From the IMG/VR virus record IMGVR_UViG_3300020434_000055: a stretch of DNA of 64,000 nt. One strand, 5' to 3'. Both the position numbers and the translations under genes were made by a program. Below, one piece after another: positions 1 to 64,000 of the stretch. Below the pieces are notes generated by a model. The model worked only from the letters and a program-made list of their open reading frames with translations, did not search any database and was not told where the DNA came from. The stretch's first letter is position 1, and the number at the start of each line of letters is the position of its first letter. The DNA is from a virus (Duplodnaviria > Caudoviricetes).

Positions 1-3000
1 ACTAGAAAGATTATCATTTTGGTAAGTAACTTTTTGTTTAAGGTCACCTACATTGTGTTTTGCCTTTACAAAACTTGTTTTAAATGCAAAATCTATTAAT
101 TTATTTTCGCTAAATGCATATCTTAAACTAGAAAAGAAAAGTTTGTTATATTCTACTTTTAAATCATCAACAAATATTTTATCTCGTAAAGTTTCTAAAA
201 TTGTTCTTGCTTCTATTACTGGTTGTCGATCATACAATACAGTATCATAACTAGTTGATTCATATCCTACAGTGCTTGAAGTAAAATTATATAAAGAATC
301 TTCAAATGCAATTGTACCATTTTGTCTTCCAACAGTTTTATAATTTACAGTATAATCTACATTAGGTTGATCATCTATTTTTTCTAATATTAACCATCCA
401 CCAGATCCTATATTTTCAATTTTTACTATATCTCCTACTTCATCAGATAAAGAATCTAACAAATATGATTGACTAATAGCATAATCTATTACTGTAAATT
501 GGCTGTATCCTACATCATACCAATCAACATATTTCCAATAAAGATCAACATTATATTTTTGTGATGATGTTCTATTCCAACTACTTAAATCTGTGTCATA
601 TGAATGTATTGCCCACTTACCAGCAATTCCAATATCACTGCTTACAAGTACACTAAATTTTCTAACAACAATTTTTGCCGCCGCAGTATAATTTTCTCCA
701 GAAGCTTTCACAATTGCACTAGTAATTTTTCCATCACCATCAATTGCTAATTCTATTACTGCACCTTTTCCATTATCACCTATAATTTCATACGTAGGAA
801 TAGTTTTATATGCTTTACCTGGATCAAGAATAGATACAGAAGTAACTTTTCCATTTTTAATAATTGGCATTAAAGATGCCTGTTTAACTTGGCTAACTCC
901 TACAAAGTCTAAATCTCCTACTACATCTACTGTTTTATCATAAAGTCTAGTATATGTTGAAGGTAAAGGATCAGATTTTGTTAAAGGAGATAAATCTAAT
1001 TCATCTACAATTAAATGAGTTAATAATACAGAATTAATTTTTTCTATTACTTGTTTAAATGCTTCTTGATGATTAATAAACCATCCTTGTCTAGGTTTGT
1101 GTAAAGTTCCATATCTAAGTTTAGGACTTAAACCTTTATCAGGTACACTATTAAAGTTTTCATCATATCCAATTAAACTATTAAACCAAACTTTTTCTAT
1201 TTCTTTAGAAGGCATACTAGTTTCTAATCCTTCTGCCATAATTTGATATTCATTATGAATATTAAGTTCTTGATTAGCTATTGTCCAATAACGAACATTA
1301 AGAACAGTATCTAAACCATCCAATTGTGAATCACAATTAACTAGTGCAAATTTATTATTACTAAAAAATGTAACATATTTGTAACCTTGACCTTTAGGAT
1401 TATCTATAAGTTTAGCAATAGATTCTGCACTAAGATTTCTATATTCAAGTTCTGGTACTGATTGTTTATTTTTTACCCAATAATAATATTTAGGTGTAGT
1501 TATTTGAGCTATTTTATCGTAAACATTTCTAGTTACATATGCATTATCTACATATTTTGTTGTTCCAGTTACACCTAAAGCTACACCTTCAGAAGTATCT
1601 TTATATTGATCCCATTCACTAGGTTTGTAATCTGATTCTACCCACTCATATACATCAATAGATGATCCTACAAATTGTTTATTCCAATAATTATTGTTGA
1701 ATATAATATTACTTTGATAAGGATAATAATATTTTGCAGTACTTAAATCCCACCAAAGTCTTCCTACTTGTTCTGACGCCCAATAATTATTTTCATCTAT
1801 TACAACACTTGCAGTCGCAGTATTATAAACTGCTGGATCATAATAAGTTTTATAATATAATTCTTCTTCAGCAACACCTGGTATTTTACCTAACACAGGA
1901 TCAATATAATCTAAATTAGTAGTAACAACATTTGTTCTTTTATTATAAATGAACACACTTTTAATTTTATCAACATCTACTTGATCTACACCTTCGGCTG
2001 TTTGTGTCCAACTTGAAGCTCCTTTAGTTTTTCTAAAATCTACTATTGTTCCTGCATTCTTATCAGGTAACGTAAGTGAAGGCAATCCAACATAAATGTG
2101 ATTATCTTTAACCAACAAATTATTTCCAAATTCTACAATACCATCATTAGCATATGCAAATTTTTCAGCGTATAATAAAGAATTTCCTGATATTTCAAAT
2201 AAATGAACTACGCCACTATCAGACATTATTTTGTAAAATGTTGTTGCTCCTGTATCAAAAACTGTAGTTGTAGAATCAAATGCTGTATTAACTTGCATAT
2301 CTCCTTTTAGACTTGTAACTGCTAAAGTAGTGCCATCAAATCCTAACTGATGACCAAAGTTTTCTGAATTTTCACTATCAGGACTTACTAAACTTTGATT
2401 TAATACAAATACACCGTCTTGTTGAAGATATGTATAAACTATTCCTGCATCTACAGAATTAACAAAATCTTTTTTCGGACTACCTATAGCTATTATTGTA
2501 CCATCCTTAGATATGCTTACACTATTAGCAAAATTAATATTAGGTGAAGAATCTTCTGGAGTAGTAATAGTTTGAGAATATGTATAATAACCATTTTGTA
2601 ATCTATATACAGCAACTTTTTGTGCATCATTACCGTATAATAAATTAGATACAATAACTGTTCCTGTTGAATTTATATCGAATTGTTCTCCAAACATTAC
2701 TAAATTACTTTGATTTAGAGTTGAATCGCCTTCTAATGTTAACCCTGTATCATTAGGAACATAACCAAGATAATCTGTACCAGTACTTTGTAGAGTCCAA
2801 AAACTTTCGTCCCAAGCATTTGGTGAAAGATTAGTTTTTGCTTTGTATAATTCTAAATTATAAATTACTAAATCTCCTTCAGCATATGTAAGGGTTGGAT
2901 CGAACACACCCATATATAATTCATTTGTTCCTAACCACCAATTTTTAGTATTACTTTTTTTAATAAAATAAATTTTTCCAGCATTATTAGATATTAAATT

Positions 3001-49730: not shown

Positions 49731-52322
49731 ATGACAAAACAGATAATACAAGATGGTATAATACCTAATGACGGTCAAGGTGACAGTCTTAGAACAGGTG
49801 CACAGAAAATAAACACAAATTTTGATGAGTTATATACTGCACTAGGAAATGGTAGTGCTTTAACTTCTATTTCAGATAATTTATTTAATTCAACAGGTTC
49901 TAACAAGATTGCGTTTCACTTTGATACGCTAGGAGATTTACCAGATGCCACAACCTATCACGGAATGTTCGCCCATGTACATAGTGAAGGTACAGGTTAT
50001 ATGTCTCATGCAGGAGCCTGGGTTAAACTCGTAGATGCAAATAAATCTATTGATGCTTTAGCAGATGTTAATACAACTAACACTACACCAACAGATGGAC
50101 AAGCATTACTTTGGGATAACGCAAATAGTTATTGGAAACCAGGTGACGTACAAGCATCAGGTGGTGGAACTTTTGTTTCATTATCAGATAGTCCTTCTAC
50201 TTTTTCTGGAGCAAATAATAAATTTGTAACAGTTAATAGTGGAGCAAGTGCTATAGAATTTACAACTCCAGTTATTGATAAAATTGGAGATGTAGATACA
50301 ACTACAACACCTCCAACAGCTGGTCAAGTATTAAAATGGAATGGATCTAATTGGGTTCCGGCTCAAGATTCTACATCAGGTGGAAGTGGATCAGACGCTG
50401 ACACATTAGATGGTTTAGATAGTCCATATTTTTTAGATTATAATAATTTTACTAATAAACCAACATCTTTTGGTAAATCTTTTAACGTATCTGCCGCAAC
50501 ATATACAGCCGCGTCAGGTATAATGCAATTAACTATTGGAGCACACGATTTAGTAATTGGTGACAATATTAAAATTGCTCCATTAAGTTTAACATTTTCT
50601 TGCGACATGGATAATCATGCTACTAATACGCAATATCCAAGAGCAACTGGAAGTGCCGCACCTGGTGGAATGGATTATGTATATAATAAACCAGTTGCAA
50701 TTACGGGTGCAGATGCAACAACAATTACAATGAATGTTGGAACTGGAAATCTTAAATCTTTTACTCCAACAGCCGCAATATACACACCAGCAACAGGTGT
50801 AATGGAATTAACTATTGGTACACACAATTACATAGCTGGTAACAAAGTTAGTATTACTACAGAAAGTTTAACTTTCACTTGCGCCTTAGATGGTCATTCA
50901 TCACAAAAAGCATATCCAAGAGCAACAGGTTCAGCCGCTCCAGGTGGAGCTGACTATGCCTACGAAACACTACAAACTCTTACATCAGTAAGTGCAACAA
51001 CAATTACAATGAATGTTGGAATATCAAGTAATACATCTGCACATACATTTGTAAGTGCTTCTGCTGGTGCTATAACAAGTTCAAATATTCATACATTTAT
51101 AAGTGCTACTTCTAATTGTATAACATTTGCAAAAAGATTTACAGAGTTATCAGATGCTCCATCTAGTTTTAGTGGATATGGAGATTATTATCTTAAAGTA
51201 AACACTGGTGGAACAGCTTTAGAACTTGTAACAAAACCTGGCGGAGCAACTAATTTATCAGGACTTTCTGATATAACAACATTAGGAAATTATTACAATA
51301 CATCAAATGCAGTATATACACCTGCGACAGGAGTAATAGTATTAACTATTGGACAACACAATTTACAAGTTGGTCACAATGTAAAAATTGCTTCAAACAG
51401 TTTAACATTTACTTGTGCAATGGATAGTAATGCAACAGAACATACATATCCAAGAGGAAGTGGATCAGCATATGCAGGTGGAAAAGATCCTGCTTATACT
51501 TCAGCAAGTACAATTACGGCAATAACTGCAGATTCAATTACTGTAAATGTTGGAATATCAAGTAATACAACAACACACACATTTATAAGATCTACTGAAA
51601 ATAATATATCAGTAGTTGATCAATCTTACAGTACATCAAATGCAACATATACACCTAACACAGGACAATTGCAATTAACTATCGGAAACCATGCCATACA
51701 GGCTGGACATTCTGTTATGATTGCCGCAAATAGTTTAACATTTACCTGCGCCTTAGATAGTAATACTACACAATCAACTTATCCAAGAGCAACTGGATCA
51801 GCGGCACCAGGTGGAATGGACTATGCTTACGAAAGACCTGTATTAATTACAGCCGTAAGTGCGACAACAATTACAATGAATTGTGGTGTATCAAGTAATA
51901 CATCAGCACATACATTTGTAAGTGCTGTTGCAAATAATATAAAAGTTGCACCAACACAAGGTGATTCATTGTACTTCAATGGAGTATCATGGTTAAGAAG
52001 AAACGGACCAGTATCAAGATATGAAATAATAAATGACAGTAGCAATAACTTTACTTGGACAGGACCTGGTTTAACATCAGCAACTAATGATCCAGTAATG
52101 TATATGAACAGAGGTCATACATATTATTTGATTAATCAAGCAGGAAGTTCTCATCCTTTAGAAATAAGAACTAGTAATGGTGGTAGTGGATATACATCAG
52201 GAGTAACAGGTAGTCAATCAGGTACACAAATATTTGAAGTACCAATGGATGCACCTGCTACATTGTATTACCAATGCACAATTCATTCTGCAATGGGTAA
52301 CACAATTAACATATTGAGTTAA
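49731..52322 (+). CDS. Baseplate-anchored fibre: gp9/gp10-type N-terminus, four repeat modules, C-terminal cupredoxin-like domain (863 aa)
   Basis: NDGQGDSLRTGAQKINTNFDELY is the T4 gp9/10/12 N-terminal motif; modules at 50478-51941; C-terminal SHP...YYQCTIHSAM. Confidence 0.75.
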   Translation: MTKQIIQDGIIPNDGQGDSLRTGAQKINTNFDELYTALGNGSALTSISDNLFNSTGSNKIAFHFDTLGDLPDATTYHGMFAHVHSEGTGYMSHAGAWVKLVDANKSIDALADVNTTNTTPTDGQALLWDNANSYWKPGDVQASGGGTFVSLSDSPSTFSGANNKFVTVNSGASAIEFTTPVIDKIGDVDTTTTPPTAGQVLKWNGSNWVPAQDSTSGGSGSDADTLDGLDSPYFLDYNNFTNKPTSFGKSFNVSAATYTAASGIMQLTIGAHDLVIGDNIKIAPLSLTFSCDMDNHATNTQYPRATGSAAPGGMDYVYNKPVAITGADATTITMNVGTGNLKSFTPTAAIYTPATGVMELTIGTHNYIAGNKVSITTESLTFTCALDGHSSQKAYPRATGSAAPGGADYAYETLQTLTSVSATTITMNVGISSNTSAHTFVSASAGAITSSNIHTFISATSNCITFAKRFTELSDAPSSFSGYGDYYLKVNTGGTALELVTKPGGATNLSGLSDITTLGNYYNTSNAVYTPATGVIVLTIGQHNLQVGHNVKIASNSLTFTCAMDSNATEHTYPRGSGSAYAGGKDPAYTSASTITAITADSITVNVGISSNTTTHTFIRSTENNISVVDQSYSTSNATYTPNTGQLQLTIGNHAIQAGHSVMIAANSLTFTCALDSNTTQSTYPRATGSAAPGGMDYAYERPVLITAVSATTITMNCGVSSNTSAHTFVSAVANNIKVAPTQGDSLYFNGVSWLRRNGPVSRYEIINDSSNNFTWTGPGLTSATNDPVMYMNRGHTYYLINQAGSSHPLEIRTSNGGSGYTSGVTGSQSGTQIFEVPMDAPATLYYQCTIHSAMGNTINILS
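50478..51941 (+). repeat. Four copies of a ~105-aa coding module (one nested, two tandem)
   Basis: Consensus YTPATGxMxLTIGxH...IAxxSLTFTCxxDxxxxxxxYPRATGSAAPGGxDYxY...TTITMNVG...HTFVSA. Copy 1 is 50478-50756 plus 51081-51125 around copy 2 (50757-51080); copy 3 is 51291-51611; copy 4 is 51624-51941. Confidence 0.9.
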
Positions 52323-52711: not shown

Positions 52712-55700
52712 ATGGCAGATTTCAAAATAGATAGGATACGATTTAGATGGAGAGGTGACTGGGTAGCAGGTACTTCTTACATTAAAGATGATATCGTTAG
52801 ATATGGTGCAAAAATATTTGTCTCTATCGAAATGCATACAGCAGATGCTAACTTTTATAATGATTTAGATAATATAGTTCCAAGATGGTCACAAATGATG
52901 GATGGTCAAAGTTGGACTGGTAATTGGAAAACAAGTAATTTTTATAAAGTAGGTGAAGTAGCAAAAGTTGGAGCGGCAGTTTATAAATGTATAGAAGGTC
53001 ACTTATCAAATGCAAGTGAAGCCAATGGATTATTAGGTGATGAAAATAAATGGGTTTACTTTGCAAGAGGTGAAAAATGGACATCTTTATGGCAACCTAA
53101 TACACTTTATAACGTTGGTGAAACAATTGTTTATGGTGGATCAGTTTGGAAATGTATAACATCACATACTTCTTCAACTACAGCCGCAGGTATAGAATAT
53201 CATCAAGCCAATTGGGTTCAATATCATAGATCAGATTTTTACAGAGGTTATTGGGCACCAAATATAAGATATTATCCAGATGATATAGTAAGAAATGGTG
53301 GAGTAATTTACAGAGCTGTAACAGGACATACAAGTGCCGCAGTAGATTATTGGAACGATTTAGATAGTACAGATTATACAACAAATTCATCAAGTGGTTC
53401 TGGTGCAGTTATAAATGTTTTCAGAGTTGGCACAACTTATTATGTAAAATTTACAAATGCAGGAGTAAACTTTGCGGCGGCAGAAACTATTTCTATAGTA
53501 GGTAGTAAAATTGGTGGAGCCGATGGTACAAATGATTTATCAATCACTATTAATACAGTAAACAGTGGAGCAATAGCAACGACATCTGCAAATGGTACTG
53601 CTGTTTCAGGTAGTGCAGGTTTAGAAGCCGATCAAGCAAAATGGGAAATAGTTCTTGATGGTATTGAATATGAAGATGATTGGGCATACGGAAAAAAATA
53701 TAATAAAGGTGCTCTTGTATCTTGGAGTCCGGGAATTTGGCAAGTAACTACTAGTCACTGGTCAATAACGGATTACATGAATGAAGCTAATTTTTCATTA
53801 TGGGTTCCAGGTGCAGAATACGAAGGAACTTACTCTACTACACAATATTATCAAAAAGGTGACGTTGTACATTATGGTGGTTATAGTTATGTTGCTTTAG
53901 TAAGCAATACAAATATTATTCCAGGGGTTACAGATAGTACAAATACTTGGGAATTAATTCAAACAGGTTATAATTTTAGAAGCGAATGGAATAGTTCAAC
54001 TGCATATAAAACAGGAGATGTAGTTAGAGCAGGTGGTAACTTATTCATAGCAGTACAAGATAGTACTGGAGCAGATCCTGATACAACTTTTATCTATGAT
54101 CCAGGTAGTGATGCTCCTGATCCTTGGCAATTATTAGTAACTGGTAAAGCATTTAAAGGTTCTTGGAAAGAAAGTGATTCCAACGGAGCAATTACTTACT
54201 TTGTAGGTGATGTAGTTACAGTAGCAGGAACAGTATACGCTTGTATTAAAACACATGAGTCATCATCATCTGATTCTAAACCAACTTTAGATGAAGAAAG
54301 TGAAAATGTCGGTCCTTATTGGGTAATGATAGCCAAAGGTAATGAACCAGGCGCTTTAGTACTTGAACAAATAGGTGACGTAAAAAGTTTTGATACAGAA
54401 AAAACAAGAATAGGTTTAGGAACAGTAGGACAATTATTTAAAGGCAATGCAACTGGTGATTATCCAATATGGGGTGATCATGATGTAATAAAAAATGTAT
54501 TTTTTGTTTCACCTTATGGAACAGACACTCCTACTAGTGGTAAAAGTGTTGCAGGACCTTTTAAAACAATCAAATATGCTTGTGATTTTGTAGCGGCAGA
54601 TTTAGCCGAACGAACACCATGTACTATAGCAATTAAAACTGGTGTATATGAAGAAATATTACCTATTACGGTCCCAAGAGATACACACATTTGGGGAGAT
54701 TTTACAAGACGTGGTGTGAACGTTAGACCTAAAGCAGGTTATACAACAACAGATATGTGGCGTGTAAACAATGCCTGTGGTATTGCAAATATGACAATGC
54801 AAGGAAAAACAGGTGGATTAACTGCCGCAAATGAATATGGAACAAAAAGAACAACAGGTGGAGCATATGTAACTTTAGATCCAGGTAGTGGACCTGCAGA
54901 TACAAGTGTTCATATTTTAACAAAATCACCTTACATTAAAAACTGTTCAATATTTGGAACAGGATGTACTGGATTAAAAGTAGACGGAGACTTACACGAT
55001 GGTGGTCTCAAATCTTTTGTTGCTAATGATACTACACACTTTATTGAAAATGGAATTGGCGCTCATGTTAATGGAGATGCTAGAGTAGAATTTGTTTCAG
55101 TATTTGCCTATTACGCCCACATAGGATATTTGGCAACAGGCGGTGGAAAATTTAGAGCAACAAATGGAAATTCATCTTATGGTGATTTTGGTTGTGTTGC
55201 AGAAGGACAGTTAGCGGCAGAAACTCCAACAACTGGAAAAATTAATAACCAATCACAAGAAGCACAGGTAGATGCAGTTTATAATGATGAAAATGAAATA
55301 TTTGCTTTTGCATATGATCACGCAGGACAAAATTATTCATCAGCAACAATTAATATTTTCGGTTCAGGAGAAGGAGCCGCGGCAACATTAGGTTACGATC
55401 AAATTAGAAATGGTGGAGTAGGTAAAGTAAGAATTAAAGGATTAGGTGATTCATCTACAGCTGGTGGTTCAAATTATACTAGTGAAATAGCACCTTCACA
55501 AGGTGGTGATGCAACATCAATTAAATTAGCACAACAATACGAAGGTACGCCAGCCGAAACTGTAGGACAAAGAATTTATATATGGGAAGGTACAGGTAGA
55601 GGTCAGTATGGATATGTTCATACTTACGACTCAGGTACAAAAGTTGCAACTATTAAAAGAGAATTTGATGATACAGATGGTTGGCAACACGTGATGGGTG

Positions 55701-58700
55701 GTTTCCCTATTGAAACTTTACTTAATGCATCTACAAAATATTCTATAGAACCTAGAATTACATTTACAGATGGACCTTATAATAAATCTACTCCTTCTTT
55801 TGGAACTACAGGAGAAATGTTAGTATCTGCATCAGGAAGAGTTGGAGCATCTGATGTTACAGTATTACTTGGTAATGGTAAAGGAAATAGAACAACAGAT
55901 GGTTCAAACTGGACTGCTGTTAGTGGAGTTCCTTTAGCTGACTGGATCGGAATGACTAGAACAGAAAATTATTTTATAGCAGTAGCACAAGATGGAACAA
56001 CTGCTAGATCCGCCGACGGTGCAACATGGACTAATATCACAACAAGTCAATATAGTACAACAGGAGGAACATATACACCATCTACAGGAGAATTAGTATT
56101 AGAAATTGGAGCACATGAAGTAGGTCAGACTTATAGTACAACAAGTGCAACATATACACCAGCAACAGGTGTAATGGAATTAGGTATAGAAAAACATACT
56201 CCTGGAGCACAATTTACTCCATCAGCCGCAACATACACTCCGGCAACAGGAGTATTAGAATTAACTATAGGATCACATAGTTTAGTAGCAGGTAATAAAG
56301 TTAAAATTGCTCCAAATAGTTTAACATTTACTTGCGCCTTAGACAGTCACGCTACTGAAAAAACATATCCAAGAGCAACTGGAAGTGCCGCACCAGGCGG
56401 AGTAGATTATTTCTACGAAAAAGCAATAACTCTTACGTCAGTAGGTGCAACAACAATTACAATGAACGTTGGTGATACTAGTATATCAGGCAATAACTCA
56501 ACACACACATTTGTAAGTGCTACTTCTAATTCTGTAACAGAACAAGTTATTGGAGCACACAATTTACATATTGGTAATGAAGTTAAGATTGCACCAACAA
56601 GTTTATCTTTTACTTGTTCTTTTGATGATCATACTGCTCAAACAGCCTATCCAAGAGCAACTGGATCTGACGCACCGGGTGGTTACGATTATTATTATTA
56701 TAGCCCAGTAGAAATTACAGCCACAACAGCATCAACAATTACAATGAATGTTGGTAAAGGAAATATTAAAAATTATACTGTAACAGACGCGGCTTATACA
56801 CCAGCAACAGGAGTAGTAATATTAACTATTGGTGATCATAATTTAGTAGCTGGTAATCATATTGACATTGCTCCATTAAGTTTAACATTTACTTGTGCCC
56901 AAGATAGTCATGCAACAGAACATAGCTATCCAAGAGCAACAGGTTCAGCCGCTCCAGGTGGTTATGATTATTTTTATAATAAACAAATAGAAATTATTTC
57001 AGCAGGTGCAACAACAATTACTGTAAATGTTGGAATATCAAGTAATACAACAGCACATACATTTATAAGTGCTCTTGCTGACGGTGTATCAAATTCAAAT
57101 ACACATACATTTGTAACTGCTCTTGCAAATAATATAACATTAGCAGGTCAATTTGTTATGATTGCTCCAAACAGTTTAGGTTTTACTTGTTCTTTTGATA
57201 ATAATGTATCAACTCATACATATCCAAGAGCAACAGGATCAGCGGCGCCAGGTGGAATGGATTATTTTTACGATACACCAGTTGAAATTCAAAGCAGAAC
57301 AGCAACAACAATTACAATGAATGTTGGAAAAGGAAATATTAAAAGTTACACTCCAACAGCCGCAGTATATACACCTGCATCAGGAGTAATGGTATTAACC
57401 ATTGGAGCACATAGTTTAATAGCTGGTAATTATGTTGATATTGCTACAGACAGTTTAACATTTACTTGCGATCAAGATAGTCATGGTAGTAATCATACAT
57501 ATCCAAGAGCAACTGGAAGTGCCGCACCTGGTGGTTATGATTATTATTACGAAAAACCAATAAGAGTTGAGTCAGTAGGTGCAACAACAATTACTCTAAA
57601 TGTTGGTATATCAAGTAATACAACAGATCACTTATTTGTAAGTGCGACTGCTGATTGTGTAACAAATTCAAATGCACACACATATGTAAGTGCTACTGCG
57701 AATAATGTATCTTATTATTCTGTTCCTGTTGATGTAATGTCAGGTATTGCATATCGTAATGGAACTGTAATAATTGCATCAGAAACAGGAATGGTTTATA
57801 AATCAACTGATGACGGTTCTAGTTTCTCAGCTGATCAATTAGAAGTTTATGATGGTTCAACATCGATATTCACATATATTGCCGCTGGAAATGGATTATG
57901 GATAGCAGGTAATGGAACTGGAAAAACTTATGAAAGTCAAGATGAAGGAACAACTTGGTCATTAGGTTCTAATATTGGAGACAAATTAATGGATATTAAC
58001 GGTGTTCTTAAATCTGTTCACAGATATGATGTAACATCATTAATATTTGGTGGTGGTAAATTTGTAGCAACAGTAATAGACGCTCCAGGAGATGAAAGTA
58101 CAGTTATTAGTAAATTTATGATATCAAATGCTACAGGACAAGTTGGAGCTTCTGAACAAACAGCTACAAGATGGACAGAAAGTGAAACACCTCCACACGC
58201 AGGACCTTACATTGGAGTTGCATATACTGAAGGTACATATGTTGCAATATCGGCCGGTGGAGATCTTGCTTACAGTTATGACGCTTGGTCTTGGAAAATA
58301 TTAGATTCTGCATTAACAGGAACGTTTTCAAGTATAGGTAGTGGTAAAGCTGGCGGTGGACATTTTGTTCCTTTACAAACTGGTAGTACCGGTACAACAT
58401 ATTTGTTAAGAAAAGGTTCAAGACCTTTAGCAAGAGCAATTACAAGTTCTCAAGTAATTACAAAATTACAAATTTTATCTCCAGGTAGTGGATATTCAAC
58501 TGCACCAGCAGTTACAATAACTGACAATAAAGCTACAACTGATGCAAGTCTTGAAGCAAGAATATTTGATGGAGTATTAGGTCAACCAGAATTTTCAAAT
58601 AGAGGTTCAGGATTTATGAATGTATCTGCAACATTAACAGGAGATGGTTTTGCAGATGAATATCAAATTGGTCCTTATCTTCAAGTAAAAGATATGAACG

Positions 58701-59533
58701 GAAAACCAGGACCAGGTGCAATTTTATATATAAATGGACTTGAAGATCAAGTTTATAGAATAACTCAGGTTAATAATGTAACAGGAAATTCTCCTAACAT
58801 TGCCGCTCAGTTTAGAATAACACCTAGACTAAATGCAAATGAATCTCCTGATCATGAAACAACAATAGAAATAAGAGAAAGATACAGTCAAGTTAGAATA
58901 ACTGGTCATGATTTCTTAGATATTGGAACAGGTAATAAATCTACAACTAATTATCCAGGTTTATACACTAGTGGTTATACACCAGGTTATGAACGTAAAC
59001 AACAAAATGAAACTGTATCAAATGGAGGAGGTAGAGTATTTTATACTTCTACTGACCAAGATGGAAATTATAGAGTTGGAGAATTATTTGAAGTAGAACA
59101 ATCTACAGGAATAGTAACATTAAACGCAGATTTATTTGACTTATCAGGTTTAACAGAAATTACCTTAGGTGCAGGTGGAGTTGGTGGTACTGATGTTAAA
59201 ATTAATGAATTTAGTACAGATCCAACGTTGAAGAAAAATTCAAATAGTGTGATACCTACACAAAAAGCAATTGCTACATTCGTTGGCTCTAGAGTTTCTG
59301 GAGGAGGTGCAAATCTTATTACTAATGAAGTTAGAGCAGGACAAATAAAATTTGCTAATGATCAAATATTTAATGAAGCATTTCCGGCGGCTGGACAAGT
59401 TGTATTTGCCGCTACAGTAAATATTTCAAATGTTTCTGGGCCTATGTTAGCACAATCATACTTTTTTGGCTCTAATGTTAGAGATAGCTGGGATGAAGGT
59501 GGAGTAGAACGGGACACATTGTATGGAAATTAA
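52712..59533 (+). CDS. Very large tail fibre/appendage protein (2273 aa)
   Basis: N-terminal W...Y..GD.V.YGG..Y.C...H.S repeats (CBM5/12-like), beta-helix region, BNR/Asp-box-like propeller (SADGATW, STDDGSSF, SQDEGTTW) interrupted by five nested modules, and PGSGY..AP repeats. Confidence 0.8.
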   Translation: MADFKIDRIRFRWRGDWVAGTSYIKDDIVRYGAKIFVSIEMHTADANFYNDLDNIVPRWSQMMDGQSWTGNWKTSNFYKVGEVAKVGAAVYKCIEGHLSNASEANGLLGDENKWVYFARGEKWTSLWQPNTLYNVGETIVYGGSVWKCITSHTSSTTAAGIEYHQANWVQYHRSDFYRGYWAPNIRYYPDDIVRNGGVIYRAVTGHTSAAVDYWNDLDSTDYTTNSSSGSGAVINVFRVGTTYYVKFTNAGVNFAAAETISIVGSKIGGADGTNDLSITINTVNSGAIATTSANGTAVSGSAGLEADQAKWEIVLDGIEYEDDWAYGKKYNKGALVSWSPGIWQVTTSHWSITDYMNEANFSLWVPGAEYEGTYSTTQYYQKGDVVHYGGYSYVALVSNTNIIPGVTDSTNTWELIQTGYNFRSEWNSSTAYKTGDVVRAGGNLFIAVQDSTGADPDTTFIYDPGSDAPDPWQLLVTGKAFKGSWKESDSNGAITYFVGDVVTVAGTVYACIKTHESSSSDSKPTLDEESENVGPYWVMIAKGNEPGALVLEQIGDVKSFDTEKTRIGLGTVGQLFKGNATGDYPIWGDHDVIKNVFFVSPYGTDTPTSGKSVAGPFKTIKYACDFVAADLAERTPCTIAIKTGVYEEILPITVPRDTHIWGDFTRRGVNVRPKAGYTTTDMWRVNNACGIANMTMQGKTGGLTAANEYGTKRTTGGAYVTLDPGSGPADTSVHILTKSPYIKNCSIFGTGCTGLKVDGDLHDGGLKSFVANDTTHFIENGIGAHVNGDARVEFVSVFAYYAHIGYLATGGGKFRATNGNSSYGDFGCVAEGQLAAETPTTGKINNQSQEAQVDAVYNDENEIFAFAYDHAGQNYSSATINIFGSGEGAAATLGYDQIRNGGVGKVRIKGLGDSSTAGGSNYTSEIAPSQGGDATSIKLAQQYEGTPAETVGQRIYIWEGTGRGQYGYVHTYDSGTKVATIKREFDDTDGWQHVMGGFPIETLLNASTKYSIEPRITFTDGPYNKSTPSFGTTGEMLVSASGRVGASDVTVLLGNGKGNRTTDGSNWTAVSGVPLADWIGMTRTENYFIAVAQDGTTARSADGATWTNITTSQYSTTGGTYTPSTGELVLEIGAHEVGQTYSTTSATYTPATGVMELGIEKHTPGAQFTPSAATYTPATGVLELTIGSHSLVAGNKVKIAPNSLTFTCALDSHATEKTYPRATGSAAPGGVDYFYEKAITLTSVGATTITMNVGDTSISGNNSTHTFVSATSNSVTEQVIGAHNLHIGNEVKIAPTSLSFTCSFDDHTAQTAYPRATGSDAPGGYDYYYYSPVEITATTASTITMNVGKGNIKNYTVTDAAYTPATGVVILTIGDHNLVAGNHIDIAPLSLTFTCAQDSHATEHSYPRATGSAAPGGYDYFYNKQIEIISAGATTITVNVGISSNTTAHTFISALADGVSNSNTHTFVTALANNITLAGQFVMIAPNSLGFTCSFDNNVSTHTYPRATGSAAPGGMDYFYDTPVEIQSRTATTITMNVGKGNIKSYTPTAAVYTPASGVMVLTIGAHSLIAGNYVDIATDSLTFTCDQDSHGSNHTYPRATGSAAPGGYDYYYEKPIRVESVGATTITLNVGISSNTTDHLFVSATADCVTNSNAHTYVSATANNVSYYSVPVDVMSGIAYRNGTVIIASETGMVYKSTDDGSSFSADQLEVYDGSTSIFTYIAAGNGLWIAGNGTGKTYESQDEGTTWSLGSNIGDKLMDINGVLKSVHRYDVTSLIFGGGKFVATVIDAPGDESTVISKFMISNATGQVGASEQTATRWTESETPPHAGPYIGVAYTEGTYVAISAGGDLAYSYDAWSWKILDSALTGTFSSIGSGKAGGGHFVPLQTGSTGTTYLLRKGSRPLARAITSSQVITKLQILSPGSGYSTAPAVTITDNKATTDASLEARIFDGVLGQPEFSNRGSGFMNVSATLTGDGFADEYQIGPYLQVKDMNGKPGPGAILYINGLEDQVYRITQVNNVTGNSPNIAAQFRITPRLNANESPDHETTIEIRERYSQVRITGHDFLDIGTGNKSTTNYPGLYTSGYTPGYERKQQNETVSNGGGRVFYTSTDQDGNYRVGELFEVEQSTGIVTLNADLFDLSGLTEITLGAGGVGGTDVKINEFSTDPTLKKNSNSVIPTQKAIATFVGSRVSGGGANLITNEVRAGQIKFANDQIFNEAFPAAGQVVFAATVNISNVSGPMLAQSYFFGSNVRDSWDEGGVERDTLYGN
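56048..57712 (+). repeat. Five recursively nested copies of the coding module
   Basis: A[56048-56128 B[56129-56209 C(56210-56539) 56540-56770 D(56771-57091) 57092-57139] 57140-57343 E(57344-57664) 57665-57712]. Confidence 0.88.
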
Positions 59534-59581: not shown

Positions 59582-62500
59582 ATGGCTGAGTTTAAACTAG
59601 GTAGAATTAGATTTGTTTGGAAAGGTTCTTGGGTAACTTCAACATCATATTACGTCGATGACGTTATAAGATATGGTGGAAGAACCTATAATTGCGTATC
59701 AAATCACATTGCTAACGCAGATTTCCAAGTAGACTTATCTGCTGAAAACTGGCAATTAATGTCCGATGGTCAAGAATGGAAAAGTGACTGGTCATTAAAC
59801 ACAGTTTACAAACCAAATGATGTTGTAAAATATGGTGGTTACATTTATATTTGTAACACAGGACACACATCTGCCGCAACGGTAGAACTTGGCTTAGAAA
59901 ATCATCAATCTTATTGGGATTTATTTGTAGAAGGATTTGATTGGAAATCTGATTGGACAATTTCTACTAGATATAAAGTAAATGATTTAGTAAAATATGG
60001 TGGATCAGTTTATCTTTGTATAGAAGAACACACATCAGATACAACAACAGCAGTTGGCTTAGAAGGAAAACAAAGCAAATGGGAAATTTTTGGAAAAGGT
60101 TTTGTTTGGTTAGGCGACTGGGCAATTAATACTAGATACAGAGTAAATGATACAGTTAGATACGGTGGACAAATTTATATTAACATAACTGGACATACTT
60201 CAGCGGCAACTATCGCAGATGGTTTAGAAGCCAATCAAGCACAATGGCAAGCCTTACACAAAGGAATAGAATATTTAGGTGCTCACGCGGCAACAACAAG
60301 ATATAAAGTTAATGATGTAGTAAAATATGGTGCAAATATTTGGATTGCTACAGCGGCACATACATCAACAACTTCTTTAGCGGCTGACGAAGGTAATTGG
60401 TCAGTTTTAATTCCAGGTTTAGAATTTGAAGATACTTGGGATTCTTCAACACAATATCAACCAGGTGACTTTATTACTTACGGTGGATATAGTTATGTTT
60501 CAAATACAAATAACGTTAATAAAAATCCACCTCTTAATTCAAGTGATTGGACATTATTTGTAACAGGATTTAATTTAAGAGGCGACTATAATGCCGTTAC
60601 TGCATACAAACAAGGTGACGTTGTTAGAGTTGGAGGTTTTACATATCTCGCAATTGCAGACACAACAGGTAATAAACCACCAAGTGTTTTACACTGGGAT
60701 AAACTTAATGAAGGTTTATATTGGAAAGGTAATTGGGCAAATGCAACTGAATTCGACAGAGGTGATATAGTAAGAGGAACTACTAACACTAATACAAGTT
60801 ATATTTGCGTAACAGGACACACATCAAATAATGTTGGACCAAGTACAATTAATCAACCAGACTATCCACCAGGAGCAGGTGTCGATACTAGTGTTTGGTC
60901 ATTATTAGCATCAGGAACAGAAAACGCTGTACTATCAGTAAAAGGTGATCTTTTAATTTATGGTCAATCAGGACCAGCTAGATTGCCAATTGGTAAAGCA
61001 GGACAAACTTTAATTGTAAACTCAGCAGGTGATCTTCCTGAATGGGGATACTTTGGAGCTGTAGATCAAGTTTATTATGTTTCAGAAACAGGAACAGATG
61101 TTCCAGCACCTGATTCAGGACCAACACTTGACAAACCTTGGAAAACTTTAAGATATGCTTTATGGCAAATTGAACAAGGACCAAGAAATCCTCAAGGAAC
61201 TTACATGATGGAAAGAAACAAAGCATTTATTCAAGCAGAAATTATAGCTTGGATTAACGCTCAAATTTCTGGAAACATTTCACCTTTCACATCAGGTTAT
61301 ACATACGACGCGGCAAAATGTACAAGAGACTCTGGATTAATGATTGATGCAGTTCTATGGGATTTAAGACATGGTGGAAATGAAAAATCAAGATATGCAA
61401 CACTTAGAATTTCAACTCAAACAGAATTTGTAAATAATTCTGCTGAATTACAAGCCTATCTTACTAGATTAGTTTATATTACACAACAAGTTACAGCCAA
61501 CAATGCAGGTTATTCTGCAGGACAAGGTACAATAAATCAAGTTGTTGATAACAATTATACTGCGGAGCCGGCTGTTAATGGAGAAATTGCAAGTTATATA
61601 CAAATTGCAATAGATTGTCTTGCGGCAGGTAATACATCTGGAGTACCTATAGAAGAAATAGCACAAACTACATTATTTGTTAAAACAGGAACATACGAAG
61701 AAGTGTTACCTCTTTCAATAAGAAAAGGAACAGCACTAGTAGGAGATGAATTAAGATCAACAGTTATTAAACCAGCGGGACAACAATCTTCAGTAAGCGA
61801 CACAGCATTTACATTACAAGGTATTGGTAGAATGCAGGCAATTTTGTCTGACATAGTTCAGAACGTTGCTGTAACACCAACACCTGTAGGAGGTGTTACA
61901 TTTTTAACAACACCTGCACCAGATTTAGGTTTTGTTAATGGAACTTACACTAACGTTGCAGTAACAGGTGGAACTGGAACAGGATGTACAGTAGATTGTA
62001 CTGTTTTATCATTTGCAATTACGGCTTTGTCTATAAATTCACCAGGACAGAATTATGTAGTTTCTGATGCATTAACAATTCCAGCGGCAACAATTGGAGC
62101 AGATGGAGTTTCAACTGTAACAGGAGTTACAACAGGAAATAATTTAACTCAAAATACAGATCTTCCTGTAGGTTCAGCGGCGGCAGGTACAGCGGCGGCG
62201 GCAATTGGACAAAATATTATAGATCATATAACTTACAAAGTTAATGCAACTGGATCTGATCCAGCATTAACTGGTGTTAATAGTGCAGATTCAACTGCAG
62301 GTTTCACAGATGCAAGATTAAGACTATTAGCAAATAAAGAATTTATTGCATTAGAAGCCGCGGAGTTTGTACAAAGAGCAAATCCAACTCATAGTAATTT
62401 TAAAGAAAAATGTTTGAATGATATTAGAATATATGTTCAAACAATTATGGACGACTTAGAATATACCGGCAATTATAAATCATTGAAAGCCTCAGATGCC

Positions 62501-64000
62501 TACATTAATTCTAGACTTGCAAAAGGTTCTAGTGCAAATGATATGTTCTATGTTAGAAATGCTTCAGGAATAAGAAATGTAACAGTAGAAGGTTTAATAG
62601 GAACATTAGGTACTACTCAATTCTCTACAACAGCGGCAACATACACACCAGCAACAGGTGTAATGGAATTAACTATTGGATCACATAGTATTGCTGTTGG
62701 TGAAAAAGTAATGATTGCTTCAAATAGTTTAATCTTTACTTGCGATCAAGATACTCACGCTACTCAACATAGCTATCCAAGAGCAACTGATCCTTATTAC
62801 AATAAAGAAATTTTAGTTACAGGTGCGACAGCGACTACAATTACAATGAATGTTGGAATATCAAGTAATACAACAGGACATACATTTGTAATGGCTACTG
62901 AAGATAATGTAACATTAGCTACTGCAAATGAATATGGAACAAAAAGACCAACAGGTGGAGCATATGTATCATTAGATCCAGGTTGGGGACCAGCACATGA
63001 AGAAGTATGGATTAAGTCTAAATCACCTTATATCCAAAATGTAACAACTTGGGGAGAAGGTTGTGTTGGAGTAAAAGTAGACGGTGCATTACACGATGGT
63101 GGTTTTGATTCTATCGTTGGAAATGACTTTACACAATTATGCGATAATGGTATTGGTGCTTGGATTACAAATTTAGGTAGAGTAGAACTTGTATCAGTAT
63201 TTTCTTATTATGCACACATAGGTTACCTTTGTGAAAATGGTGGAAAACTTCGTTCTACAAACGGAAATTCATCTTATGGTGATTTTGGTTGTGTTGCAGA
63301 AGGAACAGATGCAAGTGAAACTCCAATAACAGCAACAATAGATAATAGAAGTACAGATGCAGTTATTGACAATGTTATAACAGATGCTAATCAAATATTA
63401 GCATTTGAATATGATAATGCAGGTAGACAATATAGTAATGCAACATTTACTATATCTGGACCTGGTTATGGAATTGCTGGAACAACTCCAACTTATAATA
63501 CTGGTGGTGTTTACAAAATTAGATTAATAGAAACTAATCAAGAAGTAAGTGATCAAGGTGGATCAACTTACATGACTGCACTTAATACTGGACAAACAGG
63601 TGACACTACATCAATTACTATAGCTAACGCAGATAGTAATGCCTCAGGGGCTTATCCTGGAATGGCAATATGGATTGTAGAAGGAAAAGGTGTAGGACAA
63701 TATGCATATATTAATACTTACAATGCAACAAGTAAAGTTGCAACTGTTAAAAAATATTCAAATGCCGCAGACGGTTGGGAAAGACTTGGCGGTTTAGCGG
63801 TAGAGGCAACATTAGACAATACAACAAAATATAGTATTGAACCGAGAGTAGTTATTGCGGCTCCTCAAGATGATGGAAGTACAGCAGTTAGACAAGCAGT
63901 TGCAAGAGCAGTTGTTACAACAGAAAAAATTTCCAAAGTAAAAATTATAGATTGCGGAGCAAGTTATACTTCAGCACCTACTGTAACATTTACTGATCCT
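59582..64000 (+). CDS. Paralog of the 2273-aa fibre protein, truncated by the right edge (at least 1473 aa)
   Basis: MAEFKLGRIRFVWKGSW versus MADFKIDRIRFRWRGDW; same repeat set and beta-helix (NGNSSYGDFGCVAEG); TAAATA at 59551-56; absent from the ORF track, consistent with no stop in the window. Confidence 0.85.
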   Translation, partial: MAEFKLGRIRFVWKGSWVTSTSYYVDDVIRYGGRTYNCVSNHIANADFQVDLSAENWQLMSDGQEWKSDWSLNTVYKPNDVVKYGGYIYICNTGHTSAATVELGLENHQSYWDLFVEGFDWKSDWTISTRYKVNDLVKYGGSVYLCIEEHTSDTTTAVGLEGKQSKWEIFGKGFVWLGDWAINTRYRVNDTVRYGGQIYINITGHTSAATIADGLEANQAQWQALHKGIEYLGAHAATTRYKVNDVVKYGANIWIATAAHTSTTSLAADEGNWSVLIPGLEFEDTWDSSTQYQPGDFITYGGYSYVSNTNNVNKNPPLNSSDWTLFVTGFNLRGDYNAVTAYKQGDVVRVGGFTYLAIADTTGNKPPSVLHWDKLNEGLYWKGNWANATEFDRGDIVRGTTNTNTSYICVTGHTSNNVGPSTINQPDYPPGAGVDTSVWSLLASGTENAVLSVKGDLLIYGQSGPARLPIGKAGQTLIVNSAGDLPEWGYFGAVDQVYYVSETGTDVPAPDSGPTLDKPWKTLRYALWQIEQGPRNPQGTYMMERNKAFIQAEIIAWINAQISGNISPFTSGYTYDAAKCTRDSGLMIDAVLWDLRHGGNEKSRYATLRISTQTEFVNNSAELQAYLTRLVYITQQVTANNAGYSAGQGTINQVVDNNYTAEPAVNGEIASYIQIAIDCLAAGNTSGVPIEEIAQTTLFVKTGTYEEVLPLSIRKGTALVGDELRSTVIKPAGQQSSVSDTAFTLQGIGRMQAILSDIVQNVAVTPTPVGGVTFLTTPAPDLGFVNGTYTNVAVTGGTGTGCTVDCTVLSFAITALSINSPGQNYVVSDALTIPAATIGADGVSTVTGVTTGNNLTQNTDLPVGSAAAGTAAAAIGQNIIDHITYKVNATGSDPALTGVNSADSTAGFTDARLRLLANKEFIALEAAEFVQRANPTHSNFKEKCLNDIRIYVQTIMDDLEYTGNYKSLKASDAYINSRLAKGSSANDMFYVRNASGIRNVTVEGLIGTLGTTQFSTTAATYTPATGVMELTIGSHSIAVGEKVMIASNSLIFTCDQDTHATQHSYPRATDPYYNKEILVTGATATTITMNVGISSNTTGHTFVMATEDNVTLATANEYGTKRPTGGAYVSLDPGWGPAHEEVWIKSKSPYIQNVTTWGEGCVGVKVDGALHDGGFDSIVGNDFTQLCDNGIGAWITNLGRVELVSVFSYYAHIGYLCENGGKLRSTNGNSSYGDFGCVAEGTDASETPITATIDNRSTDAVIDNVITDANQILAFEYDNAGRQYSNATFTISGPGYGIAGTTPTYNTGGVYKIRLIETNQEVSDQGGSTYMTALNTGQTGDTTSITIANADSNASGAYPGMAIWIVEGKGVGQYAYINTYNATSKVATVKKYSNAADGWERLGGLAVEATLDNTTKYSIEPRVVIAAPQDDGSTAVRQAVARAVVTTEKISKVKIIDCGASYTSAPTVTFTDP
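62618..62914 (+). repeat. Single copy of the coding module inserted in a beta-helix region
   Basis: QFSTTAATYTPATGVMELTIGSH...LIFTCDQDTHATQHSYPRATDPYY...HTFVMATEDNVT, flanked by AACATTAG at 62602-09 and 62911-18. Confidence 0.88.

What the first reader, a model, noticed from the sequence alone, without database searches (positions are those of the whole stretch)
56048..57712. Russian-doll protein: a ~105-aa module inserted recursively into itself, three levels deep
Seen: the 555-aa block parses cleanly only as nested copies. A is split at site 1 (after IGAHEV) by B, and at site 2 (after MNVGKGN) by E. B is itself split at site 1 by C and at site 2 by D. Each interrupted copy resumes exactly where it broke (LAGQFVMIAP; IGAHNLHIG; SNxHT(F/Y)). 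The same site-2 nesting (MNVGTGNLK-[copy]-SNIHTF) occurs in another gene at 50478-51125, and the whole block interrupts a BNR-type propeller. The module therefore has two permissive loops, giving a binary-tree architecture rather than a tandem array. Inference: a mobile in-frame domain whose N- and C-termini are adjacent, able to build branched, fractal-like fibre surfaces. I know of no named system with this recursive architecture.
Basis: partly seen in the sequence, partly recalled or inferred. Interest (0 to 1): 0.88.

Follow-up and report, generated by a model that had tools for sequence, protein, structure and literature searches.

The report
Self-nested beta-barrel modules in cyanophage fibre
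A tail-fibre-like protein of a marine T4-like cyanophage really does carry five copies of a ~100-residue beta-barrel module nested inside one another like Russian dolls. The same module nests up to ten deep in related phages, an apparently undescribed and extreme case of a design already known from the cyanobacterial RNA polymerase Si3 arm.

Summary
Observation confirmed. A profile built from six intact copies maps the 555-aa block as profile positions 1-25 | 2-24 | 1-107 | 18-88 | 1-107 | 91-107 | 26-88 | 1-107 | 91-107, that is A1[B1[C]B2[D]B3]A2[E]A3, with linkers of 0-5 residues.

The module is a 6-7-stranded beta-barrel (AlphaFold2 pLDDT 97). It has no Pfam or NCBIfam model. It resembles, only distantly, the inserted barrels of E1 enzymes (FCCH) and of phage endosialidases.

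The window's simpler nested pair, in the gp10-like gene, folds confidently as two complete barrels (pLDDT 94, pTM 0.74).

Nesting is family-wide in marine cyanomyovirus structural proteins:
- 204 order-discriminating piece closures are last-in-first-out, against 12 apparent crossings.
- There are at least five insertion hot spots, all in predicted loops.
- One relative parses as a balanced ten-level nest.

Signature residues are as conserved in split copies as in intact ones. Orthologues and paralogues show filled and empty sites.

Mis-assembly is unlikely: at least 12 independent full-length variants keep the architecture.

This scan has also noted self-nesting of other modules on other DNA. 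Function (a rigid, branched, possibly glycan-binding projection) is inferred. The 555-aa block itself could not be folded.

The parts
52712..59533 (+). Host gene: 2273-aa tail-fibre-like protein. It has N-terminal CBM_5_12-type repeats, a beta-helix-like middle part, a propeller-like region that holds the block, and a conserved C-terminus.
   Evidence: ORF list. Pfam CBM_5_12 E=4.6e-29; PHROG 9851 'tail fiber protein' E=3e-162. Orthologues are annotated as tail fibre in P-SSM2, S-SSM7 and S-CAM1.
56048..56122 (+). A1: N-terminal segment (strands 1-2) of outermost module A
   Evidence: HMM positions 1-25
56123..56200 (+). B1: N-terminal segment of module B, inserted at site 1 of A
   Evidence: HMM positions 2-24
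56201..56548 (+). C: intact module inserted at site 1 of B (depth 3)
   Evidence: HMM positions 1-107, 179.5 bits
56549..56770 (+). B2: middle segment of B. It repeats the IG.H motif, so B is split before the conserved His.
   Evidence: HMM positions 18-88, 94.5 bits; site-1 sub-types
56771..57088 (+). D: intact module inserted at site 2 of B (depth 3)
   Evidence: HMM positions 1-107, 181.1 bits
57089..57139 (+). B3: last strand of B
   Evidence: HMM positions 91-107; dedicated c-strand HMM 14.8 bits
57140..57343 (+). A2: middle segment of A
   Evidence: HMM positions 26-88, 87.1 bits
57344..57664 (+). E: intact module inserted at site 2 of A (depth 2). This is the copy folded with AlphaFold2.
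   Evidence: HMM positions 1-107, 185.3 bits; model pLDDT 97.4
57665..57712 (+). A3: last strand of A
   Evidence: HMM positions 91-107; c-strand HMM 13.9 bits
55769..56047 (+). Propeller-like flank before the block, with two D-G-x-x-W type motifs
   Evidence: Sequence; DUF6242 E=0.006, below cut-off
57713..58501 (+). Propeller-like flank after the block, with two Asp-box motifs at aa 1698 and 1742
   Evidence: Regex scan; BNR E=0.011 and DUF6242 E=0.003, both below cut-off; feature similarity 0.97 to DUF6242_C clusters
50472..51131 (+). Nested pair in the gp10-like baseplate gene 49731-52322. The outer module is split at site 2 by a complete inner module (50757-51077).
   Evidence: HMM 1-89 | 1-107 | 93-107. 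AlphaFold2 pLDDT 94.2, pTM 0.74. Outer and inner barrels are each matched by the same known barrels. The pair is a clean indel among orthologues.
51294..51947 (+). Two intact tandem modules in the gp10-like gene (51294-51614 and 51624-51947)
   Evidence: HMM positions 2-108 and 1-108. Orthologues carry 0, 1 or 2 of them.
62618..62914 (+). Single module inserted in the beta-helix-like region of the paralogous downstream fibre gene (59582-64000, open at the window's end). The paralogous site in the host gene (about 54797-54829) is empty.
   Evidence: BLASTP of the paralogues. Junction repeat AACATTAG at 62602-62609 and 62911-62918; removing one repeat-to-repeat unit restores the paralogue's length.

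Best explanation
The block is five copies of one ~100-residue beta-barrel module, joined by recursive domain insertion rather than in tandem. Module A sits in a loop of a propeller-like domain. A carries B in its strand2-strand3 loop and E in its strand6-strand7 loop. B carries C and D in the same two loops.

Shown: the parse; the fold of the single module; the confident two-barrel model of the window's simpler nested pair; and the last-in-first-out order of piece closures across the family. Also shown: split copies keep the signature residues as well as intact ones do, and all insertion hot spots lie in predicted loops.

Inferred, step 1: because each guest leaves and re-enters its host through one short loop, every inter-domain joint has two covalent connections and 0-5-residue linkers. 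The array would therefore be a stiff, branched projection whose two chain ends return to the same point. That lets an arbitrarily large array be grafted into one loop of a baseplate or fibre protein without disturbing the host fold.

Inferred, step 2: the arrays grow and shrink by in-frame, short-homology recombination between the many diverged copies in the phage genome, and by duplication of already nested composite units. Selection then keeps only the events that fall in permissive loops.

Inferred, weakly: the barrels act as spacers or multivalent glycan-binding units in host recognition, by analogy with the inserted barrel of phage endosialidases. The near-invariant His (segment a), invariant Cys (segment b) and near-invariant His (segment c) may bind a metal that staples the three segments together.
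For: Parse: and again with a 137-sequence profile.

Single module: AlphaFold2 pLDDT 97.4, pTM 0.88.

Nested pair of the gp10-like gene: pLDDT 94.2, pTM 0.74. The outer last strand has pLDDT above 90 and is scored as a strand. Phage phi92 endosialidase barrel 4hiz_A aligns over model range 1..220 with 73 residues at 2.0 A, Z 7.4; this is the outer, discontinuous barrel. UBA1 FCCH 4p22_B aligns to 93..204, Z 7.3; this is the inner barrel.

Family-wide order: 388 closures are last-in-first-out, 204 of them discriminating, against 12 crossings. P0007 residues 119-1792 form a balanced ten-level nest, closed in exact reverse order using five site classes.

Hot spots lie in predicted loops.

Conservation in 905 unique intact copies: Cys41 100%, Pro53 100%, His88 99.8%, Gly13 99.7%, His22 95%. 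Split pieces show the same: Cys 98.6%, Pro 99.9%, His88 98.4%.

Gain and loss: gp10-like orthologues carry 0, 1, 2 or 4 modules, and the nested pair is a clean 221-aa indel. The paralogous fibre genes show a filled versus an empty site with an 8-bp junction repeat. Composite ab[F]c units share conserved junctions across 21 diverged examples.

Assembly: 12 or more full-length 2273-aa variants, differing by 2-52 residues, all keep the architecture. The DNA is present in 20 runs from 10 studies. Copies are only 66-79% identical in DNA, and the longest shared exact tract is 39 nt.
Against: - The 555-aa block itself was not folded, because MAFFT piles all homologous rows on one copy. The three-level structure is therefore extrapolated from a two-level model and from sequence logic.
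- Within the block alone, the piece order does not distinguish nesting from a crossed pairing of A and B. Both are open at site 1 at the same time.
- No coordinates were available, so the N-to-C distance, loop geometry and the proposed Cys/His site were not measured.
- Fold matches to known barrels are moderate (Z 6.6-7.4, 9-19% identity). The glycan-binding analogy is accordingly weak.
- Public short contigs break at the shared tracts of 30 nt or more and do not span the block. No long reads were examined.
- Junction microhomology was seen in one event only.
Confidence: 0.85

Rival explanations
1. The block is a mis-assembly of diverged repeats, so the nested order is an artefact of wrong paths through shared tracts.
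For: Module copies share exact tracts of up to 39 nt. Logan's k=31 contigs from four independent runs break at those tracts and do not bridge the block.
Against: At least 12 independently assembled full-length variants are on record, from ENA, JGI, NCBI and Tara, on contigs up to 355 kb. They differ by 2-52 residues yet keep the length of 2273 aa and the identical piece order. Copies are only 66-79% identical in DNA. A wrong jump between homologous tracts would unbalance the a/b/c count, which is exactly 5/5/5. The same grammar is found in cultured phage genomes (P-SSM2, S-SSM7) and in hundreds of other proteins.
Confidence: 0.02
2. The pieces pair in a non-nested way. Examples are A1 with B2/B3 and B1 with A2/A3 (crossed), or complementation in trans between chains of a trimeric fibre, so that the 'dolls' are domain-swapped rather than nested.
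For: Inside this block A and B are both open at site 1, so order alone cannot tell which 'b' belongs to which 'a'. Many phage fibres are intertwined trimers. Only a monomer was modelled.
Against: Wherever hosts are broken at different sites, closures are last-in-first-out: 204 against 12, and a ten-level example closes in perfect reverse order. A crossed pairing would need linkers that span a whole domain, whereas the observed linkers are 0-5 residues. A1 ends at profile position 25 and A2 starts at 26, an exact complement. The monomer model of the nested pair is confident, with both barrels complete.
Confidence: 0.06
3. The split pieces are decayed leftovers of unequal recombination between tandem copies. 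On this view they serve only as linkers, and only C, D and E are real domains.
For: The short 'a' and 'c' pieces score weakly on their own (4-17 bits). Host copies A and B are more diverged (51-62% identity to the others) than the leaf copies are from each other (67-71%).
Against: Signature residues are as conserved in split pieces as in intact modules. A and B keep Tyr, Gly, His, Cys, Pro-Arg and His-Thr-Phe/Tyr. Piece counts are balanced and complementary. The outer split module of the nested pair is modelled as a complete barrel with pLDDT above 84 in every 10-residue block.
Confidence: 0.05
4. The module is an actively mobile genetic element, an in-frame 'domain transposon' or homing cassette, rather than a passively duplicated domain.
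For: Filled and empty sites occur in paralogues and orthologues. An 8-bp direct repeat flanks one insertion. The module occurs in several unrelated host domains: itself, a beta-helix-like region, a propeller-like region and gp10.
Against: The ~300-nt unit encodes only a beta-barrel, with no Pfam, NCBIfam or PHROG nuclease or recombinase signal. Copies are old and diverged (66-79% DNA identity). Composite nested units are inherited and duplicated whole. One 8-bp repeat has a chance expectation of roughly 1%, but it is a single case.
Confidence: 0.05

Closest known systems
Si3 insertion of cyanobacterial RNA polymerase beta' (nested sandwich-barrel hybrid motifs, SBHM)
   Same: Homologous small beta domains are inserted into one another. 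In the Thermosynechococcus Si3 crystal structure, four of the eight SBHMs are built from distant chain segments (PMC10895346). The arrangement is described as six-level recursive insertion with bifurcating nodes (PMC13114784). The whole array is grafted into one loop of a host (the trigger loop) and forms an elongated arm.
   Different: The fold is different: no RNA polymerase or SBHM hit appeared among the top structural matches. This is a virion protein, not a cellular enzyme. The copy number and depth are larger (up to ten levels). The copy number also varies strongly between close relatives.
Inserted beta-barrel of phage endosialidases (Pfam End_beta_barrel PF12195; phi92 4hiz, K1F 1v0e)
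   Same: It is the best or joint-best structural match (Z 6.6-7.4, rmsd 2.0-2.1 A over 72-73 residues). It too is a small barrel inserted in a propeller-type domain of a phage tail protein. Three of 137 module copies give weak PF12195 hits.
   Different: Sequence identity is 12-19%, and no copy in the window reaches any Pfam threshold. The endosialidase barrel is a single copy and is not self-nested. Sugar binding is not shown here.
FCCH domain of ubiquitin-activating enzyme E1 (Pfam E1_FCCH PF16190)
   Same: Equal structural score (Z 6.8-7.3), and this is itself an inserted barrel. Pfam E1_FCCH is precomputed on several homologues and on viral Atlas clusters that hold the module or a related barrel.
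   Different: Matches are below threshold (best E 0.002, 3 of 137 copies). The function is unrelated.
Duplication of small His-box domains in T4-type tail-fibre adhesins (gp37/gp38). This comparison rests on my own knowledge, not on a check made here.
   Same: Host-range proteins of T4-like phages change by in-frame duplication and exchange of short modules at short homologies.
   Different: Those duplications are tandem. Here the copies are placed inside one another.
Self-nested modules noted elsewhere by this scan (CBM_4_9 inside its paralogue, e1-2587456; a ~70-residue barrel in GH54 enzymes, e1-2406839)
   Same: A surface-protein module is inserted in a loop of its own paralogue.
   Different: Other folds, other organisms, and shallower nesting as described in those notes. 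Not checked here.

Membership tests
Recursive self-insertion architecture (type example: SBHM array of cyanobacterial RNA polymerase Si3) | A complete guest domain lies inside a loop of a homologous host domain, and the host's flanking segments complement each other exactly | tested here: met
   Profile coordinates 1-25/26-88/91-107 for A and 2-24/18-88/91-107 for B. The two-barrel model of the nested pair.
Recursive self-insertion architecture (type example: SBHM array of cyanobacterial RNA polymerase Si3) | More than one level, with a guest that is itself a host | tested here: met
   B is a guest of A and the host of C and D. Relatives nest up to ten levels.
Recursive self-insertion architecture (type example: SBHM array of cyanobacterial RNA polymerase Si3) | SBHM (barrel-sandwich hybrid) fold | tested here: not met
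   The top structural matches are FCCH, endosialidase and FNR/EF-Tu-type barrels, with no RNA polymerase chain among them. It works like Si3 but is not a member of that domain family.
Pfam E1_FCCH (PF16190) / End_beta_barrel (PF12195) | Sequence match above Pfam's gathering score | tested here: not met
   The window copies give no hit at E<=0.1. Only 3 of 137 copies hit each family, with best E 0.002-0.003. The profile search against PDB sequences found nothing significant.
Pfam E1_FCCH (PF16190) / End_beta_barrel (PF12195) | Same barrel fold | tested here: inconclusive
   Z 6.6-7.4, rmsd 2.0-2.5 A over 71-79 residues. Foldseek TM by query is 0.50 for 4hiz. The tool's own note says Z under 8 is common for unrelated models.
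BNR/Asp-box beta-propeller (host of the block) | Repeated Asp-box motifs on both sides, and a Pfam BNR or propeller-family match | tested here: inconclusive
   Two D-G-x-x-W motifs before the block and two S-x-D-x-G-x-x-W/F motifs after it. BNR E=0.011 and DUF6242 E=0.003-0.006, all below cut-off. Atlas feature score 0.97 to DUF6242_C clusters. The flanks were not folded.
T4 gp10-like baseplate wedge protein (gene 49731-52322) | N-terminal T4_gp9_10_N domain above the Pfam cut-off | tested here: met
   PF07880, 26.9 bits against a cut-off of 25, E=6e-6. PDB gp10 chains match residues 3-46. PHROG 677 E=2e-75.
Autonomous mobile element (intein, homing cassette, transposon) | Encodes or is associated with a nuclease or recombinase, with consistent target-site duplications | tested here: not met
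   No such domain in Pfam, PHROGs or NCBIfam. One 8-bp junction repeat only.

The most novel reading that the evidence does not exclude
A phage-specific beta-barrel has evolved to be both a universal guest and a universal host. It has five or more permissive loops and one metal-ligand-type residue in each of its three separable segments. Cyanophages could then build rigid, branched 'trees' of any size (up to ten nested levels, deeper than the six-level case highlighted in a 2026 survey of 2.7 million domains) from a single loop of a baseplate or fibre protein. They could re-tune those trees quickly by recombination, as a way to vary the reach and valency of host recognition.
Probability: 0.35. 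Interest if true: 0.78.

Novelty: new variant of a known kind. Interest (0 to 1): 0.6.

Why it matters
These proteins belong to the T4-like phages of Prochlorococcus and Synechococcus, among the most abundant viruses in the sea. Their giant structural proteins have been sequenced since 2005, yet they remain 'hypothetical' or 'structural protein'.

Recognising a ~100-residue module with no Pfam model, together with its nesting grammar, explains a substantial part of their length. It also explains why domain-finding tools return confusing partial hits.

The family may be the deepest natural example of recursive domain insertion (ten levels). It offers a natural map of loops that tolerate a whole-domain insertion, which is useful for protein engineering. 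It is also a test case for structure predictors and domain parsers on discontinuous domains.

If the arrays are the variable, host-facing part of the baseplate and fibres, their gain and loss between close relatives is a candidate mechanism of host-range change in the ocean.

Tried and rejected
1. Folding the 555-aa block. MAFFT places all homologous rows on one copy or on the wrong c-strand (local tests). A correct alignment could not be built with the tool, so the second fold job went to the window's nested pair, for which 20 same-architecture rows exist.

2. Megablast of the gene against phage records: no match. The window's own assembly is not held.

3. PDB sequence searches, with the block, with a flank, and with the 137-row profile: nothing significant.

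4. Looking for an 'empty propeller' allele. The orthologues in P-SSM2, S-SSM7, S-CAM1 and the Pelagibacter phage Mosig lack the propeller-like region altogether and carry their modules elsewhere or not at all. The closest metagenomic relatives have the parts in another order.

5. Scan of bacterial and archaeal genomes. The single-module scan found no relative, but it detects only close relatives.

6. Read-level check. Only Logan contigs could be laid. They tile the block but break at shared tracts, so this neither confirms nor contradicts the order.

7. Literature searches for 'Russian doll', 'matryoshka', nested or self-insertion in phage fibres, and cyanophage cryo-EM found no description of this module. 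They did find the RNA polymerase precedent.

8. Rejected: a tandem array of circularly permuted units. The piece order a a abc b abc c b abc c is not periodic.
Full report
**What is there.** The finding lies in a 2273-aa ORF (52712-59533, + strand) in the structural-gene region of a T4-like marine cyanophage. Its neighbours include a gp10-like baseplate wedge gene (49731-52322; Pfam T4_gp9_10_N above cut-off) and a paralogous giant fibre gene (59582 to the window's end). The protein has CBM_5_12-type repeats at its N-terminus. It matches PHROG families annotated as tail fibre or virion structural protein.

I built an HMM from six uninterrupted copies found in the window and scanned all six-frame ORFs. 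The 2273-aa ORF gives nine consecutive hits with profile coordinates 1-25, 2-24, 1-107, 18-88, 1-107, 91-107, 26-88, 1-107 and 91-107, separated by 0-5 residues. With a = strands 1-2, b = the core and c = the last strand, the order is a a abc b abc c b abc c. That reads as A1[B1[C]B2[D]B3]A2[E]A3.
- The counts are balanced (5/5/5), and the order is not periodic. This excludes a tandem array of intact or circularly permuted units.
- The gp10-like gene has the simpler ab[abc]c, followed by two tandem copies. The downstream fibre gene has one copy.
- One refinement: A is split just after the conserved His, and B just before it. These are two sub-sites that recur across the family.

**What the module is.** No Pfam or NCBIfam model matches it, and no solved structure matches by sequence.
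- AlphaFold2 on copy E, with 137 diverse copies as the alignment, gives a seven-strand barrel with pLDDT 97.4 and pTM 0.88.
- Structural neighbours are moderate. UBA1 FCCH domain: Z 6.8. The barrel that phage phi92 endosialidase carries inside its propeller: Z 6.6, TM by query 0.50. FNR/EF-Tu-type barrels rank below these.
- A few family members give sub-threshold Pfam hits to E1_FCCH and End_beta_barrel. Viral Atlas clusters that hold the module or a related barrel carry E1_FCCH in 19-74% of their members.
- I therefore call it an FCCH/endosialidase-like inserted barrel, not a member of either Pfam family.

**Distribution.**
- The exhaustive profile search finds only 567 representative proteins among 1.84 billion.
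- tblastn with one module hits 327 of 50,697 phage records. All are Synechococcus or Prochlorococcus myoviruses, or marine single-cell virus records.
- BFVD and Atlas structural hits are likewise cyanophage proteins.
- A close-relative scan of bacterial and archaeal genomes found none.
- Split pieces are present in the published genomes of P-SSM2 (a 5195-aa ORF) and S-SSM7 (a 3001-aa ORF).

**Is it nesting?** Within this block, A and B are both open at the same site, so order alone cannot exclude a crossed pairing. The family settles the question.
- I parsed 270 module-bearing proteins with a stack parser: a piece starting at profile position 1 opens a domain, and a later piece must continue an open one.
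- 388 continuations fit the innermost open domain. In 204 of these the outer open domains were broken at a different site, so the test is discriminating. Only 12 were true crossings.
- P0007 residues 119-1792 form a balanced nest ten levels deep. Its nine back-to-back closing pieces match the opening pieces in exact reverse order across five site classes.

**Where the breaks fall.** Break points cluster at profile positions 25-28, 43-46, 55-56, 70-72 and 79-85. Every cluster lies in a loop of the predicted barrel. The third cluster is also where the window's copies carry an 8-residue loop expansion.

**Are the split copies real domains?** Across 905 unique intact copies, Cys41 and Pro53 are invariant, His88 is 99.8%, Gly13 99.7%, Tyr8 97% and His22 95% conserved. 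Split pieces show the same values within about one to four percentage points. They are under the same selection as intact copies and are not decayed remnants.

**Structural test.** A correct alignment for the five-copy block cannot be made with MAFFT, because homologous rows all pile on one copy. I therefore folded the window's own nested pair (gp10-like protein residues 248-467). For this pair, 20 diverged same-architecture rows align cleanly and 99 single modules fall on the inner copy.
- Result: pLDDT 94.2, pTM 0.74, and no residue below 70. The outer last strand is modelled as a strand with pLDDT above 90. The strand pattern of the outer copy mirrors that of the intact module.
- In an exhaustive structural comparison, the phi92 endosialidase barrel aligns to model range 1..220 with 73 residues at 2.0 A (Z 7.4). 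This can only be the outer, discontinuous barrel.
- UBA1 FCCH aligns to 93..204 (Z 7.3), which is the inner barrel.
- Both barrels are therefore complete in the model.

**Evolution.**
- gp10-like orthologues form a series with 0 modules (485-487 aa), 1 module (530-534 aa), 2 tandem modules (642 aa) and 4 modules (862-863 aa). The nested pair is a clean 221-residue indel.
- The downstream fibre gene is a paralogue of the host gene. Its single module sits where the host gene has none. It is flanked by AACATTAG on both sides, and removing one repeat-to-repeat unit restores the paralogue's length.
- Composite ab[abc]c units share conserved junction motifs across 21 diverged examples. Already nested units are therefore also copied whole. 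A and B in the block both look like such composites.
- Leaf copies C, D and E are 68-70% identical to each other, whereas the hosts A and B are 55-61% identical to any other copy of the block.
- This pattern fits passive recombination-driven accretion filtered by foldability. Nothing suggests an autonomous element.

**Assembly.**
- The 90% cluster of the protein holds at least 12 full-length 2273-aa variants from several sources. They differ by 2-52 residues and all have the same piece order.
- The DNA is found in 20 runs from 10 studies.
- Copies are 66-79% identical in DNA, with shared exact tracts of at most 39 nt.
- Logan's short contigs tile the block but break at those tracts, so they do not prove the order independently. 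Long reads were not examined.

**Context of the block.** Asp-box-like motifs flank it, two before and two after. Both flanks give sub-threshold DUF6242/BNR hits, and feature similarity to DUF6242_C clusters is 0.97. The propeller reading is plausible but not established.

**What is known.** Recursive insertion of homologous small beta domains has a solved precedent in the Si3 insertion of cyanobacterial RNA polymerase. It has eight SBHMs, four of them built from distant chain segments, forming a 150-A arm grafted into the trigger loop (PMC10895346). A 2026 survey of 2.7 million domains highlights that case as six-level nesting (PMC13114784).
- I found no paper describing this phage module or its nesting.
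- This scan has noted self-nesting of other modules on other DNA.
- The finding is therefore a new and extreme variant of a known design principle, not a new principle.

**Mechanism (inferred).** A guest enters and leaves through one loop, so each joint has two short covalent links. An array of any size returns both chain ends to the same point, which allows grafting into a single host loop and should give stiff, branched projections. The structural kinship with the endosialidase barrel suggests multivalent glycan binding. The single invariant Cys plus two near-invariant His, one in each separable segment, suggest a metal staple. Both ideas are untested.

Noticed in passing
window 62602-62918 versus 54797-54829: The downstream fibre gene is a paralogue of the host gene (53% identity over 317 aa). 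It carries one module at a site that is empty in the host gene. The insert is flanked by AACATTAG, which encodes T-L on both sides.
   Followed up: yes
window 49731-52322 and relatives P0273-P0300: gp10-like baseplate orthologues form a length series of 486, 532, 642 and 863 aa. The series is explained by 0, 1, 2 and 4 modules.
   Followed up: yes
all module copies, e.g. window 57344-57664: There is one strictly invariant Cys (905 of 905 copies) and two near-invariant His. One of these three residues lies in each of the segments that insertions separate. This may be a metal site that clamps the split barrel. It was not testable without coordinates.
   Followed up: partly
window copies, e.g. 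57512-57535 in copy E: Nine of the ten window copies carry an 8-residue loop expansion (G-S-A-A-P-G-G-x) after Y-P-R-A-T. This is exactly where relatives insert whole modules (profile position 56/57). The copy at 62618-62914 lacks it.
   Followed up: partly
window 56365-56394, 56932-56956, 57023-57044, 57499-57534: Public k=31 contigs from four independent runs all end at the same short tracts shared between module copies.
   Followed up: partly
protein P0002 in the protein collection: The exact 2273-aa sequence is recorded on 12 contigs, the longest of 355,620 bases. That is larger than typical T4-like cyanophage genomes (170-250 kb). It may be a concatemer, a mis-join or an unusually large phage.
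   Followed up: no
P0007 residues 119-1792 (metagenomic relative): A balanced ten-level nest of the same module. Cluster mates of up to 7387 aa show the same depth.
   Followed up: yes
window 52712-54700 (N-terminal third of the host protein): Five CBM_5_12-type repeats (E=4.6e-29), a chitin/carbohydrate-binding motif family, lie at the N-terminus of both paralogous fibre proteins.
   Followed up: no
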